64,000 nucleotides of DNA from the IMG/VR virus record IMGVR_UViG_3300033066_001786, positions 49,119 to 113,118 of that record. One strand, written 5' to 3'. Source of the stretch: a virus. Its lineage: Duplodnaviria > Caudoviricetes. Position numbers and translations under genes: made by a program. The notes under the pieces were generated by a model that was not told where the DNA came from, searched no databases, and saw nothing but the letters and a program-made list of their open reading frames with translations. This document shows positions 19,670-61,538 of the stretch, piece by piece (position 1 is the stretch's first letter; the number at the start of each line of letters is the position of its first letter).

Positions 19670-19687
19670 ATTATTATTTATCAGATG

Positions 19688-19716
19688 TTGACAATATTGT
19701 TAAAATGCTATATTAT
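19688..19716 (+). promoter_or_regulatory. sigma70-like promoter for clpP operon
   Basis: TTGACA-N17-TATTAT. Confidence 0.65.
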
Positions 19717-19750
19717 TAACATACTTTTGTAACTTCCCAAGGAGAAGTAT

Positions 19751-23619: not shown

Positions 23620-23918
23620 AACATAATTTGTTTTTAAATCATAACATCGAAAACGACGATGTTACAATGGTTGTTGTTGAGCTGCCTTGCAAAGGTGCCG
23701 AGTACACTTATTTTGTAAGGGAATTAAAAAACAATACTAGTGGATCATTTTATATATATCGAACTACTACATACGCTATATCCGATGTAGAAAAATTATA
23801 TGTAGGTTTTGAAAATGAAAAAGATGCAATGTTCTTACGTTTAAGGTATGATGTTAAAGTTATAAACAGCTGGAACAAAGATATTCGTTTTTCCTATTTT
23901 AAATATGTTGACAACTGA
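23616..23918 (+). CDS. Hypothetical protein (FxNEKDAM motif family)
   Basis: GFENEKDAMFLRLRY. Confidence 0.6.
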   Translation: MKHNLFLNHNIENDDVTMVVVELPCKGAEYTYFVRELKNNTSGSFYIYRTTTYAISDVEKLYVGFENEKDAMFLRLRYDVKVINSWNKDIRFSYFKYVDN

Positions 23919-49939: not shown

Positions 49940-50412
49940 TGTCTAGTAATCCATATGAACTTCTGAAGTCATTAGCTGATAAAGATCCGTATGCAGCAAA
50001 ATCGACTACTAAAAGTTATACGACACCGTCGTGGGAAGATACTGTGTATGCATCTTGCGAAATTAAAATTAAGCCAGTAAATGAAAAAACTGAAATGTTA
50101 ATGGCTTTAAAAGATGACGGGATACGTGATAAATTGCCAAATTGTATTTCGGATCTAAAGTGTAGTTTGATTGATAGTAATCAAGCAATTGTTGAATTTA
50201 CGTTATTTATTCTGGACAACGATAAATTTTCAGATTGGGATAAATTTTTACGAGGAGATGACGGTTTTGTCATAGTGCAAGAATACGGCGAAACGCATAC
50301 AGACTCGTATTCTGTAAAATTTAAAAGTAGAGTTACAGGATTTTCATCCGAAGGGTATGAAAATATACCTTCGTATCGTTATACTTTCGAGGGAAAATAT
50401 TTAAATGGTTAA
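49939..50412 (+). CDS. Hypothetical protein
   Basis: TAATG-coupled. Confidence 0.6.
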   Translation: MSSNPYELLKSLADKDPYAAKSTTKSYTTPSWEDTVYASCEIKIKPVNEKTEMLMALKDDGIRDKLPNCISDLKCSLIDSNQAIVEFTLFILDNDKFSDWDKFLRGDDGFVIVQEYGETHTDSYSVKFKSRVTGFSSEGYENIPSYRYTFEGKYLNG

Positions 50413-51331
50413 AAAGTACAGATACAGCGAACAGTTTTTTTCAGCACAAGGCGAGGCAAAGTACACGGGTGTGCCGACTGCATGGTTAAGATTGTGGGGT
50501 TGCAATTTCGAGTGTACTGGTTTTTCGCAATCAGATAAACCCAGGGAAGAATGGAAAAAAGAACATGATTTAATAGATTTAACAAACGTAACAACCATGG
50601 AAGAGCTGCCAGTCTTTACGTTAAATTGTGATAGTGCATATTCCTGGTCTAAAAGATACAGACATCTTGCTTATTTAGAAACCGCATCCGAAATTGTAGA
50701 TAAGTTAACAAATGAAATGAAAAGCGAATTTAACCCCGACGGTTTGTTTAAACACGCTAGAAGTTTGCAAGAGACGCATATGGCATTTACCGGTGGCGAG
50801 CCAATGATGTCGCAGCATGCAATTGATGCGATAATTAGAGAATTTACTAGTCGAGATAATTGTCCTGCTTTTGTAACAATTGAAACAAACGGCACACAAA
50901 AATTAAAAGATGCAACAAAAGAACTAATTAATTTACATTCGATGACTAGCGAGTTCGGTGGATTCGTACCTGATAATCGCGGTCGAACAGAATGGTTTTG
51001 GTCGGTTAGTCCTAAATTAAGTGCAAGTGGCGAAAAATGGGAAGATGCAATTAAGCCAGATATATTAGCTGAGTATTCTCTTTTAAGTAATTATGGTCAG
51101 CTTAAATATGTAGTCGACGGTAGTAAGCAATGTTGGGAAGAAGTAGAAGAAGCGACTAATATGTACAGAAAAGCAGGTGTTAATTTCCCAGTGTGGATAA
51201 TGCCGGTAGGTGCAACAGAAGAACAACAACGAAACATTGCAGGCGATATAGCAACGGAAACAATTAGACGCGGATACAATATTTCAACTCGTTTACATTG
51301 CACGTTGTGGGGAAATAAAATAGGAACATGA
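50405..51331 (+). CDS. queE: 7-carboxy-7-deazaguanine synthase (radical SAM)
   Basis: E.F.S.QGE, R..GCNF.C, CDS, TGGEP, IETNGT, SPKL, K.VV, RLH. Confidence 0.92.
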   Translation: MVKKYRYSEQFFSAQGEAKYTGVPTAWLRLWGCNFECTGFSQSDKPREEWKKEHDLIDLTNVTTMEELPVFTLNCDSAYSWSKRYRHLAYLETASEIVDKLTNEMKSEFNPDGLFKHARSLQETHMAFTGGEPMMSQHAIDAIIREFTSRDNCPAFVTIETNGTQKLKDATKELINLHSMTSEFGGFVPDNRGRTEWFWSVSPKLSASGEKWEDAIKPDILAEYSLLSNYGQLKYVVDGSKQCWEEVEEATNMYRKAGVNFPVWIMPVGATEEQQRNIAGDIATETIRRGYNISTRLHCTLWGNKIGT

Positions 51332-58060: not shown

Positions 58061-58088
58061 TTGACAAATGATAAATAAACTGTATAAT
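58061..58088 (+). promoter_or_regulatory. Composite promoter of tRNA operon (sigma70 plus nested late motif)
   Basis: TTGACA-N16-TATAAT with GATAAATA at 58070-77 in the spacer. Confidence 0.8.
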
Positions 58089-58115
58089 ACAACAATTAAT
58101 TAAAGGTAATTAGAA

Positions 58116-58193
58116 ATGAACATGCAGCAAGACCATATTAAGTTTATCGAACAGGAGGATTTTAAATCGTCCGGGGTCTTTTTGCATCTGTAA
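58116..58193 (+). CDS. tRNA-operon leader peptide MNMQQDHIKFIEQEDFKSSGVFLHL
   Basis: SD AAAGGT 8 nt upstream; 25 codons plus TAA; codons 4-17 match the downstream tRNA set. Confidence 0.8.
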   Translation: MNMQQDHIKFIEQEDFKSSGVFLHL

Positions 58194-58241
58194 TTTATAG
58201 TACAAGAAACGCAAAAAGCCCCACAAGTTGGGGCTTTTTTT
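58122..58241 (+). promoter_or_regulatory. Transcription attenuator (1:2, 2:3, 3:4 alternative helices)
   Basis: 58122-34 pairs with 58175-87; 58173-85 pairs with 58211-22; 58213-41 forms a terminator. Confidence 0.8.
58213..58241 (+). terminator. Intrinsic terminator between promoter and tRNA array
   Basis: AAAAAGCCCCA-CAAGT-TGGGGCTTTTTTT. Confidence 0.9.
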
Positions 58242-58291
58242 ATGTTTAAAATTTATACTCATGCAGTATAAATGTTTTTTAAAATTTATTT

Positions 58292-58367
58292 GGGTCGTTA
58301 GCTCAGTTGGTAGAGCAGTTGGCTTTTAACTAATTAGTCGATGGTTCGAATCCATCACGGCCCACCA
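58292..58367 (+). tRNA. tRNA-Lys(TTT)
   Basis: Full cloverleaf, loop CTTTTAA, encoded CCA. Confidence 0.96.
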
Positions 58368-58374
58368 TTTAAAT

Positions 58375-58449
58375 ACACCATTCGAACATTGGTTAGTTCG
58401 CCAGTCCTTCAAACTGGAGAAAGGAGTTCAATCCTCCTATGGTGTACCA
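58375..58449 (+). tRNA. tRNA-Glu(TTC), atypical C33
   Basis: ACACCAT/ATGGTGT acceptor, CCAGT-CCTTCAA-ACTGG, 4-nt variable loop, CCA. Confidence 0.85.
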
Positions 58450-58457
58450 ATTTTTAC

Positions 58458-58528
58458 AGGGGTATAGCCAAGTGTAAAGGCAGCGGGTTTTGATCCCGCC
58501 ATCGGGAGTTAGATTCTTCCTACCCTTG
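58458..58528 (+). tRNA. tRNA-Gln(TTG)
   Basis: GCGGG-TTTTGAT-CCCGC, G73; followed by CC and then tRNA-Phe. Confidence 0.9.
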
Positions 58529-58530
58529 CC

Positions 58531-58605
58531 GGAGACTTGAATCAGAAGGATGATTGACTGTCTGAAAAACAGTATAGGTTGGATCGTTACCAACAGTCCC
58601 CACCA
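58531..58605 (+). tRNA. tRNA-Phe(GAA)
   Basis: ACTGT-CTGAAAA-ACAGT, atypical T-loop ATCGTTA, CCA. Confidence 0.85.
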
Positions 58606-58609
58606 ATTT

Positions 58610-58685
58610 TGTCCAATAGCTCAGATGGTAGAGTCCACCTCTGATAAAGGTGAGGTCGTTGGTTCGAACCCAACTTGGACGACCA
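58610..58685 (+). tRNA. tRNA-Ile(GAT)
   Basis: CACCT-CTGATAA-AGGTG, TTCGAAC, CCA. Confidence 0.94.
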
Positions 58686-58691
58686 ATTAAT

Positions 58692-58766
58692 GGTAATTTT
58701 GATGTAGTGGTAGCATAGCAATTTGTGGCATTGCTTGGATGGGTTCGATACCCATAAATTACCCCA
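58692..58766 (+). tRNA. tRNA-His(GTG)
   Basis: G-1:C73 identity pair, GCAAT-TTGTGGC-ATTGC, CCA. Confidence 0.93.
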
Positions 58767-58772
58767 ATTTAA

Positions 58773-58847
58773 GGCCTAGTAGTTCAGAGGTTAGAGCGCC
58801 GCCCTGTCAAGGCGGAGACACGGTTTCGAGTACCGTCTAGGCCGCCA
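58773..58847 (+). tRNA. tRNA-Asp(GTC)
   Basis: CCGCC-CTGTCAA-GGCGG, G73, CCA. Confidence 0.95.
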
Positions 58848-58850
58848 ATT

Positions 58851-59261
58851 TTAAACGAAATATAGTTTTTTAACGTGTGTTCTACGATTTTCTATCTTTC
58901 CATTAGATACTAAAAAATCATGTATGCGATAACAGGCGCCGAAACTTAATTTTGACATGTTTGCAACTTCAACTATGTTTTTATTTGTGTTCTGTAAGAA
59001 CAAATTTGCAGTTTCTAAAAACAATGCATTGTTAACAGTCGTACGTTTCTTTCTTAAACCGTTTGCAGCAGTTTTTAAATGTACTTTTAAAGCCCTGGAT
59101 TCTATGCGATCTATATCGACTAAATATTCATGTGCTTTTTTTGCAGTTGACGGTGAAGTTTGATTTCTGATTGCAGCTTCGTTATACGTTAAAGTATCAT
59201 CTGAAAGTAGATCTCTCTTAACTTTAATCAATTTCTCTTTTGTTTTTTTATGTAAAGTCAT
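58851..59261 (-). CDS. Tandem HTH-like DNA-binding protein
   Basis: Two internal repeats (E.A.....S......H..LV....IE.R). Confidence 0.6.
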   Translation of the reverse strand: MTLHKKTKEKLIKVKRDLLSDDTLTYNEAAIRNQTSPSTAKKAHEYLVDIDRIESRALKVHLKTAANGLRKKRTTVNNALFLETANLFLQNTNKNIVEVANMSKLSFGACYRIHDFLVSNGKIENRRTHVKKLYFV

Positions 59262-59324: not shown

Positions 59325-59888
59325 TTAATATATTCTTAAAGATCTAAAAGGATTAGCATAGTCAACTGATGTTTCTATTATACCGTGTTTTTTGTTTAAA
59401 TATACTTGAACCAATTCTACATATTCTCTTTTAGTGCAACGTTGGATAAAATGACAGTCTTTTAAAAGTGCATTTTTAGTTTCGGCTGTTACCTTCTTTG
59501 CTATAGTATTAACTTTGATAATATCGCCCATTAATAATATCACATCGTTATATTCTACTTCAAGTTCTAACTTACACGGTATTTTAAATCCAACACCAGT
59601 GTACAGAAACATCTCGTATGTTTCTTCTTTAGATATTTTAACAGACTTGTCGCCCATTATGTTTGCAATTTGTTCCGGGTCTAAATATCCTGCAGAACGT
59701 CTTTCGTCTTCTTCTGCTTTTATTTTTAAATTATCAATGTCGAATATAAAATACTTTTTAGTCCAAGTTGGAATATTAGTATCTGCTAATATACTTTCTT
59801 TGGTTTGACTATGTAAATTACTATGTAACTCTTTTAGGTATTTCTTTTTGCTTACGGCATGCAAGTAATGCTTATATGTTCCTCTCAT
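59325..59888 (-). CDS. Hypothetical protein
   Basis: ATGA-coupled to upstream endonuclease. Confidence 0.6.
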   Translation of the reverse strand: MRGTYKHYLHAVSKKKYLKELHSNLHSQTKESILADTNIPTWTKKYFIFDIDNLKIKAEEDERRSAGYLDPEQIANIMGDKSVKISKEETYEMFLYTGVGFKIPCKLELEVEYNDVILLMGDIIKVNTIAKKVTAETKNALLKDCHFIQRCTKREYVELVQVYLNKKHGIIETSVDYANPFRSLRIY

Positions 59889-61495
59889 CTTTTTAACTCC
59901 CAAACGTCATGTCCGCAATCCCATAATATATCATATCCATTATTAATCATATTTTGCAATGCAGATAGGCTACTATTATATACGGGAAGTATATCTTTTA
60001 ATTTGTGTTTTTGATACTTCATTCTGTTCTCATATGTCTTATGCATATAGGTATAGTGGAAGCTTGGTTTTTGTTTAATGTCTTTTAATTCGAAGCTAAG
60101 TTTTCCATATACTGCATTATTGCTTGAGCTCCATCTTCTATCTGCATAAGATATAATTGACTGTGGATTTATATCTTTAATAAACGCAGATAATAACTTA
60201 CTTGCACCACCTACTACAGTATGGTTTAATTTGTGACAAAATCTATAAAGCTCATATTCGGAATCCTTATTAAATCTAGGTTTACCAAACGTCATTACAG
60301 ATACAAGTTCACCGTTATAATATAAACCGTAATTATATGATGATTGACATTTACCCTGGATATGGTTTTCTTCTAGAAATGTATTTGCAATGTTGGAAGT
60401 TATAAGTTCAACTTTGCATTTACGTCCGTGTAATTTTTTAGTTTGACCAAGTGCAGATGCTATGCGAGATTTAACTATTTCTTTTTTATTTTCCCACTCG
60501 TGACTCCAAACATGGAATAACTTAATTCCTTTTGTCTCGGCTAAATTAGTTTTATTTAAGTGATAATGTTTGTCTTTACCCATTCCAAATTCAGAATGAT
60601 AAAATAAACCATTGTACTCAATAGCAAGATTATAATCTGGCAAATAAATATCCAACTCTTTTCCGTTTAATACTTTTCTATCTTTTGTTACTATATTGGT
60701 AATATTGAGCTCGCGAATATAATCTGCTATTTCTCTTTCGCCCATACTTGTGCCACGTGTAGGATCTAATTCTACTCCGTGCTTACAATAATAGTAGTTA
60801 ACAGTATGATATGTTACATCGCCGAGTGTAGCTGCAAGCTCTACTAAATTCTTATTTTTGTTTTCTGTTAACCATTCTATACTGTTAAGTTTATCAAGTG
60901 TATTTTGGCTAATATTAAGTTGTTGGAAAAGTTTACCATATTTTGCAATTTGGCTTTCCCTTATCTTCTCTATTACTATAGGTGACTTAGATGGATTATC
61001 AACACCATACTTTAATAAACTTTGTTCTTTGAATTGTTCTTTCCACTCCGTTGTTTTGGAAAAATGATCAACTCCGTATTTTTCAACGTTTGTGGCTTTT
61101 ACTCTACTATTAAAATCTGTGTTTGCTCTAATGTCCTTCATCATTTCTGATTTTGCAAGTTTATTAGATTCTAAATGTGATATATTTTCAACTCCATATT
61201 TTTCTAATACAGTAGCTTTTACCTTTTCTTTAATTTCGATTCTATTCATATGATGCGGTACACCATATAACTCTATGTTTCTCTGTTGGTTTAATATTTT
61301 AAATTCTTCCGAAGAATGATAAGTTTTGGAACCATAACGTTCCATAGATGTTGCCATCATCTTATCTCTGGAATTTCTAGAATTAACCGTAGCAGTACAT
61401 TTTTTAGAACAGCATAATGCAGGTTTACCTTTTTTTGTTAAGGTTACCTTGTTATTACAATCTTGGTTTGCACACTTAGGTAAATCGACGTACAT
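59885..61495 (-). CDS. Hef-like homing endonuclease with KYG repeats and C-terminal GNAT-like domain
   Basis: Zn finger, (E)KYGV repeats, S.GE, ELDIYLP..LAIEYNG..H, FL..NHIQG, GGASKL, SYADRRW, DCG. Confidence 0.8.
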   Translation of the reverse strand: MYVDLPKCANQDCNNKVTLTKKGKPALCCSKKCTATVNSRNSRDKMMATSMERYGSKTYHSSEEFKILNQQRNIELYGVPHHMNRIEIKEKVKATVLEKYGVENISHLESNKLAKSEMMKDIRANTDFNSRVKATNVEKYGVDHFSKTTEWKEQFKEQSLLKYGVDNPSKSPIVIEKIRESQIAKYGKLFQQLNISQNTLDKLNSIEWLTENKNKNLVELAATLGDVTYHTVNYYYCKHGVELDPTRGTSMGEREIADYIRELNITNIVTKDRKVLNGKELDIYLPDYNLAIEYNGLFYHSEFGMGKDKHYHLNKTNLAETKGIKLFHVWSHEWENKKEIVKSRIASALGQTKKLHGRKCKVELITSNIANTFLEENHIQGKCQSSYNYGLYYNGELVSVMTFGKPRFNKDSEYELYRFCHKLNHTVVGGASKLLSAFIKDINPQSIISYADRRWSSSNNAVYGKLSFELKDIKQKPSFHYTYMHKTYENRMKYQKHKLKDILPVYNSSLSALQNMINNGYDILWDCGHDVWELKR

Positions 61496-61538
61496 TATGT
61501 ATACTTTTTATTATTATTTATCGTCTTCTAAAAAGTAG

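What the first reader, a model, noticed from the sequence alone, without database searches (positions are those of the whole stretch)
58061..58847. Leader-peptide attenuator that appears to sense the seven tRNAs it controls
Seen in sequence: promoter (58061-88), SD AAAGGT, then a 25-codon ORF at 58116-58193 that is too short for the ORF track: ATG AAC ATG CAG CAA GAC CAT ATT AAG TTT ATC GAA CAG GAG GAT TTT AAA TCG TCC GGG GTC TTT TTG CAT CTG TAA. A strong intrinsic terminator (58213-41) lies BEFORE the tRNA array. Codons 4-17 (Q Q D H I K F I E Q E D F K) use only the seven amino acids whose tRNAs follow (Lys, Glu, Gln, Phe, Ile, His, Asp), cover all seven, and sample two synonymous codons each for Q, D, I, K and E. 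If those residues make up about 40% of codons (my assumption), a run of 14 has a chance of about 0.4^14, roughly 3e-6. The RNA has mutually exclusive helices: 1:2 ATGCAGCAAGACC (58122-34)/GGTCTTTTTGCAT (58175-87); 2:3 antiterminator GGGGTCTTTTTGC (58173-85)/GCAAAAAGCCCC (58211-22); 3:4 terminator. Established: this is the trp/his/ilv ribosome-stalling attenuator layout. Inference: normal translation to the stop covers segment 2 and transcription terminates. Stalling on a sensor codon, because a host tRNA is cleaved, uncharged or depleted, frees segment 2 and induces the replacement tRNAs. That would be an inducible OR-gate counter-defence against tRNA-targeting immunity. I know of no described phage tRNA operon regulated this way.
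Basis: partly seen in the sequence, partly recalled or inferred. Interest (0 to 1): 0.97.

Follow-up and report, generated by a model that had tools for sequence, protein, structure and literature searches.

The report
Attenuator gating a phage tRNA array
A jumbo phage places a 25-codon test gene, written in the codons its seven tRNAs read, inside a terminator/antiterminator RNA switch in front of those tRNA genes, so it probably makes more tRNA only when ribosomes run short of them; I found no paper describing this trp-operon-style control for tRNA genes.

Summary
Observation confirmed. The promoter, SD, 25-codon ORF, three helices, terminator and seven tRNAs are all at the stated coordinates. 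Codons 4-17 fall only in the 14 codons these tRNAs read (p about 2e-6). Only 1 of 77,520 seven-amino-acid sets fits that run, and it is the tRNA set. The antiterminator beats shuffles (p about 2e-4) and is absent from the genome's other terminators. In folding models the sensor run ends where a ribosome starts to block the antiterminator. No close relative exists, but the same layout recurs in unrelated phages, including cultured phiCbK. Twelve content-blind leaders track their own arrays (permutation p about 5e-6). New here: the phage's late-type motif also lies upstream of the switch. Best reading: a multivalent ribosome-stalling attenuator acting as a tRNA-supply homeostat (0.8). The counter-defence purpose is plausible but untested; the tRNA-Lys anticodon arm is an ordinary one. 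There are no RNA data. Nine literature searches found no description. This scan has reported the same system before on many other phage genomes.

The parts
58061..58088 (+). sigma70-type promoter TTGACA-16-TATAAT; predicted start about 58094-95
   Evidence: 12/12 match; the same promoter-SD-ATG cassette drives genes at 19688, 23908 and 33445
58070..58077 (+). phage late-type promoter motif GATAAATA embedded in the sigma70 spacer (second start, also upstream of the switch)
   Evidence: 21 of 37 genomic copies are intergenic and 16 lie within 80 nt of a gene start, in a genome about 90% coding; the promoter role is inferred from T4 gp55-type late promoters
58102..58107 (+). Shine-Dalgarno-like AAAGGT, 8 nt before ATG
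   Evidence: sequence; same spacing as the cassette at 23908
58116..58193 (+). 25-codon leader ORF (possible second start ATG 58122)
58125..58166 (+). sensor run, codons 4-17: 14 codons all read by the 7 downstream tRNAs, 12 distinct
58122..58134 (+). segment 1 (protector arm, pairs with 58175-58187)
   Evidence: p=0.03
58173..58187 (+). segment 2 (shared by protector and antiterminator; leader codons 20-24)
58211..58222 (+). segment 3 (antiterminator partner and 5' arm of terminator)
   Evidence: 2:3 duplex -19.6 kcal/mol, p=2e-4
58213..58241 (+). intrinsic terminator (3:4 hairpin plus U-run), -15.7 kcal/mol
58251..58273 (+). weak AU hairpin (-5.9 kcal/mol) between terminator and tRNA-Lys; contains TATAAATG, 2 mismatches from the phage late motif
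   Evidence: role unknown
58292..58847 (+). tRNA array Lys(UUU), Glu(UUC), Gln(UUG), Phe(GAA), Ile(GAU), His(GUG), Asp(GUC)
   Evidence: ARAGORN, Rfam RF00005

Best explanation
This is a multivalent, ribosome-mediated transcription attenuator that sets the output of the phage tRNA array by tRNA supply. Shown in sequence or by computation: promoters upstream, a translatable leader, exclusive helices, a terminator before the tRNAs, and a codon match. Inferred steps: host RNA polymerase starts at about 58095 (early) or just after 58077 (late), and helix 1:2 forms and probably pauses it. A ribosome loads at 58116 and melts 1:2. If charged tRNAs for K/E/Q/F/I/H/D are plentiful, it reaches codons 19-26, covers segment 2, 3:4 forms, and transcription ends at about 58241. 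If any of those codons is decoded slowly (tRNA cleaved, degraded, under-modified or uncharged), the ribosome stalls on codons 4-15, segment 2 is free, 2:3 forms before segment 4 exists, and polymerase reads into the seven tRNA genes. Their products restore decoding and close the switch again (negative feedback). With no translation at all, 1:2 plus 3:4 terminate, so the switch responds to elongation stalls rather than to shut-off. Counter-defence against anticodon nucleases is one likely use.
For: Codon match. Antiterminator significant, and absent at the 3 other genome terminators. Folding: naked RNA Pterm 1.0; stall at codons 2-11 gives Panti 0.14-0.92; before segment 4 is made, 2:3 is 1.0 through codon 15, 0.68-0.40 at codons 16-18 and about 0 from codons 19-20; ribosome at codons 20-26 gives terminator only. 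The sensor run therefore ends at the switch boundary. The same layout precedes the 24-tRNA array of a MoxR-linked relative L017. In 27 viral blocks of 3 or more tRNAs with an upstream terminator, 22 have an ATG ORF of 15-50 codons ending 15-35 nt before the hairpin. For 12 distinct leaders the summed z against their own arrays is 33.6, versus 0.2+-5.1 permuted, and none of 200,000 permutations reached it. Cognate-codon bias is 64 vs 50 expected, z=3.2. Three phiCbK blocks have matched leaders.
Against: No RNA, Ribo-seq or Term-seq data. No close homologue exists to test conservation of this leader. Helix 1:2 is only p=0.03. At equilibrium, stalls at codons 12-16 let 1:2 re-form behind the ribosome. 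Several survey leaders show weak or no computed switch (L188, L194, L205, L289). A weak promoter-like sequence lies downstream of the terminator. PA5oct, 7t3, Kashira and PaBG arrays show no such leader, and CC31's array directly follows a coding gene.
Confidence: 0.8

Rival explanations
1. It is an attenuator that responds to general elongation slowing (e.g. EF-Tu cleavage, ribosome damage, phage take-over), like antibiotic-sensing leaders, and the codon roster matters little.
For: Any stall on codons 2-15 gives the same fold. Broad leaders such as L017 contain nearly every amino acid.
Against: The exact 7-of-7 match and array-specific leader content across phages need selection on codon identity.
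Confidence: 0.08
2. It is an ordinary short early gene or sRNA with its own terminator. The tRNAs are made from a separate downstream or late promoter, or by leaky read-through, and the pairing and codon match are chance.
For: The promoter-SD-ATG cassette is the phage's normal gene cassette. TATAAATG at 58267 resembles a T4 late promoter.
Against: Codon match p about 2e-6 and antiterminator p about 2e-4 are independent. TATAAATG differs at 2 positions from the phage's own GATAAATA and shows no upstream-of-gene enrichment. Leader content co-varies with arrays in other phages.
Confidence: 0.07
3. The read-through switch exists but is thrown by a trans factor (a phage antiterminator protein, uncharged tRNA T-box style, or a ribosome-independent RNA-binding protein), and the peptide is secondary.
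For: Naked RNA truncated before segment 4 already favours 2:3. A weak HTH-like gene (phrog_11046, E 5e-4) converges on the array.
Against: No Rfam T-box or other family reached threshold. A 14-codon, 7-amino-acid in-frame roster is a translation signature: the other frames give runs of 1-2.
Confidence: 0.05

Closest known systems
Leader-peptide transcription attenuators of enterobacterial amino-acid operons (trpL, hisL, pheL, leuL; multivalent thrL and ilvGMEDA leaders) - from my own knowledge
   Same: Promoter, short translated leader with sensor codons, 1:2 / 2:3 / 3:4 helices, and an intrinsic terminator before the regulated genes.
   Different: The regulated genes are tRNAs, not biosynthetic enzymes. 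It senses seven amino acids at once with about two codons each, rather than tandem repeats of one or two. It is in a phage. It shows no sequence homology: Rfam Phe_leader 25.7 bits vs cut-off 55, Thr_leader 16 vs 55.
pheM attenuator of E. coli pheST; T-box riboswitches - from my own knowledge
   Same: tRNA charging state controls read-through into translation-machinery genes.
   Different: pheM controls a synthetase with a single amino acid. T-boxes bind uncharged tRNA directly without a leader ORF, and no T-box match was found.
Anabaena PCC 7120 trn operon (PMC10272220)
   Same: A mobile-element tRNA array that is silent normally and induced by translational stress.
   Different: It is controlled by the RHH repressor TrcR at initiation, not by attenuation.
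Phage tRNAs countering anticodon nucleases: T5 tRNA-Lys vs PARIS (10.1101/2024.01.02.573894); van den Berg 2023 (PMC10264068)
   Same: Provides the selective context in which phage tRNAs replace cleaved host tRNAs.
   Different: In the passages I searched, these papers address tRNA sequence and resistance, not regulation. Here the Lys anticodon arm is a common one.

Membership tests
Ribosome-mediated (leader-peptide) transcription attenuator | Promoter followed by a short ORF with a ribosome-binding site | tested here: met
Ribosome-mediated (leader-peptide) transcription attenuator | Leader enriched in codons linked to the function of the downstream genes | tested here: met
   (1 of 77,520 sets; p about 2e-6); co-variation in other phages
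Ribosome-mediated (leader-peptide) transcription attenuator | Intrinsic terminator between leader and regulated genes | tested here: met
Ribosome-mediated (leader-peptide) transcription attenuator | Mutually exclusive antiterminator whose 5' arm is freed by a stall and covered by a ribosome at the stop | tested here: met
   (computed only)
Ribosome-mediated (leader-peptide) transcription attenuator | Protector/pause hairpin 1:2 | tested here: inconclusive
   Forms in naked RNA (P 0.93) but p=0.03 against shuffles; pausing not testable
Ribosome-mediated (leader-peptide) transcription attenuator | Leader is translated and read-through depends on stalling in vivo | not testable with these tools
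   No RNA runs available
Known Rfam attenuator families (Trp, His, Phe, Thr, Leu leaders) and T-box | Covariance-model score above the gathering cut-off | tested here: not met
   Phe_leader 25.7/55, rimP 26.7/47, Thr_leader 16/55; no T-box
Anti-defence (nuclease-resistant) phage tRNA module | tRNA anticodon-arm changes that escape host nucleases | tested here: inconclusive
   The Lys arm matches at least 120 metagenome tRNAs; host unknown, so the others were not compared

The most novel reading that the evidence does not exclude
Many unrelated phages have converged on multivalent leader-peptide attenuators that audit exactly the codons their tRNA arrays serve. The leader works as an OR-gate sensor of anticodon-nuclease immunity or other tRNA loss, and deploys replacement tRNAs on demand under negative feedback. 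Each leader would then be a readable list of which tRNAs become limiting in that host during infection.
Probability: 0.55. Interest if true: 0.9.

Novelty: new variant of a known kind. Interest (0 to 1): 0.82.

Why it matters
Why phages carry tRNAs is a decades-old question (codon compensation versus replacing tRNAs destroyed by host defences or by the phage). A codon-matched attenuator implies that these tRNAs are conditional, demand-driven genes rather than constitutive codon boosters. It makes the question directly testable with a 190-nt reporter. It would be the first attenuator shown to control tRNA genes, and a ready-made biosensor of tRNA cleavage or depletion. It also warns that such uORF-terminator leaders are missed or mis-annotated: phiCbK gp083 is a 'hypothetical protein' with predicted terminators before tRNA blocks, and the genome paper never mentions attenuation.

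Tried and rejected
Close relatives: none found. The downstream 136-aa protein is a singleton, the nearest MoxR is 56% identical, and exact or degenerate leader, terminator and tRNA-Glu patterns found nothing. Seven exact hits to the first 18 leader bases were chance matches in unrelated contexts without tRNAs. MoxR neighbourhoods of the nearest relatives that I could read had no tRNAs; two more came without DNA. Sequencing runs: no RNA holder listed; laid contigs showed no variants, so no covariation could be read for this leader. Rfam: only sub-threshold leader hits. Control: 14 metagenome tRNA blocks of 3 or more genes that look bacterial (Asn-Pro-Lys, Lys-Lys-Lys) had no upstream terminator, but this is not like-for-like because part of the viral set was selected on an upstream U-run, and my detector missed the large-loop terminator of L112. 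Literature: nine searches found no description; the 2026 jumbo-phage review has no mention of attenuation; the 2025 Trends Microbiol phage-tRNA review was not held. A nuclease-escape signature in tRNA-Lys was considered and not supported.

Full report
Context. The window is the end of a 113,118-bp viral contig, 35% GC, from riverine and wastewater samples. It is a fragment of a non-cultured jumbo phage related to PA5oct (MoxR ATPase 41% identical; shared DNA polymerase-QueE-RNase H-ATPase gene order). The nearest MoxR in 5.8 billion clusters is 56% identical, and the gene next to the array is a singleton, so no close relatives are available.

Observation. Every element is present at the stated coordinates: the 12/12 sigma70 promoter, the SD and 25-codon ORF, the terminator at 58213-41, and seven tRNAs at 58292-58847, the only ones on the contig. 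Three other assemblies and one wastewater contig carry the identical leader. One addition: the phage's own late-type motif GATAAATA (21 of 37 copies intergenic, 16 just upstream of genes) sits inside the sigma70 spacer at 58070-77. Both predicted starts therefore lie upstream of the switch. The only downstream candidate, TATAAATG at 58267, has two mismatches to that motif and no enrichment.

Is the codon match chance? The 14 codons read by the seven anticodons make up 33.9% of the phage's codons. A run of 14 or more in 24 codons has p about 2e-6. Real genes reach at most 9, and shuffles at most 11 in 300,000. The other two frames give runs of 1-2. Of 77,520 possible seven-amino-acid sets, only one yields such a run, and it is the array's set. 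The run uses 12 distinct codons of 14 (P=0.001 given the run), as expected of a roster sampling both synonymous codons.

Is the switch real? The 2:3 duplex is -19.6 kcal/mol against -9.0+-2.3 in dinucleotide shuffles (p=2e-4). The three other terminators in the genome have no such partner. Helix 1:2 is weaker (p=0.03). Constraint folding gives the following. Naked full-length RNA terminates (P=1.0, with 1:2 at 0.93). A ribosome on codons 2-11 shifts it toward 2:3 (0.14-0.92 even at equilibrium with the full terminator). Before segment 4 is transcribed, 2:3 is complete for stalls through codon 15, partial at 16-18 and gone from 19-20. A ribosome at codons 20-26 leaves only the terminator. The sensor run (codons 4-17) thus ends where the ribosome begins to occlude segment 2. 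Caveat: at equilibrium, stalls at codons 12-16 permit 1:2 to re-form behind the ribosome unless a trailing ribosome or kinetics prevent it.

Independent evidence from other phages. A MoxR-linked relative (L017, also L113 and L127) has a promoter, an SD, a 42-codon ORF containing every amino acid but Leu, an antiterminator (p=0.002) and a terminator before a 24-tRNA array. I sampled viral tRNA loci by tRNA motifs, partly with an upstream U-run, which is blind to leader content. Of 27 blocks with 3 or more tRNAs and an upstream terminator, 22 carry an ATG ORF of 15-50 codons ending 15-35 nt before the hairpin. For 12 distinct leaders (query excluded; one representative per family chosen by hand; some share a genome), enrichment for their own array's amino acids sums to z=33.6, against 0.2+-5.1 for permuted arrays; none of 200,000 permutations reached it. 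Examples are a K/M/R array behind a K/M/R-rich leader, and C/L/V, F/N/S, A/D/E/F/P and K/L/R/W arrays each behind matching leaders. Within matched amino acids, codons cognate to the phage anticodons are over-used (64 vs 50, z=3.2). In cultured phiCbK, three tRNA blocks (E/D; P/K/L/S; F/V/I/Q) each follow a promoter, a matched mini-ORF and an annotated terminator. The layout is not universal: PA5oct, 7t3, Kashira and PaBG lack it, CC31's array directly follows a coding gene, and several survey leaders show weak computed switches.

Mechanism. This is a multivalent ribosome-stalling attenuator with negative feedback on tRNA supply (confidence 0.8); the steps are given under Best explanation. Inducing more tRNA genes does not cure amino-acid starvation. 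The selective logic therefore points to loss of tRNA molecules or function: cleavage by anticodon nucleases, degradation during host take-over, or under-modification (inference). Lys, Glu, Gln, His and Asp are known targets of PrrC, RloC, colicin E5 and PARIS (own knowledge; for context), so counter-defence is plausible. However, the tRNA-Lys anticodon arm is a common one and the host is unknown, so that purpose is not shown.

Comparison and novelty. It works like the trp/his/thr/ilv attenuators and meets the four core sequence-testable features of that mechanism class (the 1:2 protector helix is inconclusive), but it is not a member of any Rfam leader family. The only translation-stress-induced tRNA array I found in the literature (Anabaena trn) uses a repressor. 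Nine full-text searches found no attenuator-controlled tRNA genes, although most subscription journals are not covered. This scan has reported the same system on many other phage genomes. Those notes are not evidence, and my scores rest on the tests above. Verdict: real, a new variant of a known kind, interest 0.82; in vivo proof is lacking.

Noticed in passing
window 58458-58605: tRNA-Gln ends in CC directly abutting G1 of tRNA-Phe (no encoded CCA, no spacer), so RNase P cleavage of Phe would release Gln needing CCA repair. The Gln and Phe T-loops deviate from the consensus.
   Followed up: no
window 58851-59261 (-): 136-aa singleton ORF convergent on the array end, with a weak HTH regulator match (phrog_11046, E 5e-4).
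   Followed up: partly
window 59885-61495 (-): 536-aa homing endonuclease (phrog_3339, DUF7487) with a GATAAATA motif upstream at 61522, inserted before MoxR.
   Followed up: no
window 19682-19720: Overlapping divergent signals: a sigma70 promoter on + and a GATAAATA motif on -.
   Followed up: no
L017:3300-3468: About 170 nt of structured-looking sequence between the terminator and the first tRNA of the 24-tRNA array; possible additional ncRNA.
   Followed up: no
L112:661-850 (- strand): 42-codon leader rich in rare amino acids, and a large-loop terminator, before a long mixed tRNA cluster in a 72-kb viral contig.
   Followed up: partly
L185:1890-2060 (PA5oct 267.4-267.6 kb): Tandem duplicated promoter-like block before the Met-Leu-Asn-Thr tRNAs, with no leader or terminator; the Met-Leu pair also appears duplicated.
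   Followed up: no
window 50405-51331: QueE-like radical SAM gene, syntenic with the PA5oct 7-carboxy-7-deazaguanine synthase; possible 7-deazaguanine DNA or tRNA modification.
   Followed up: no
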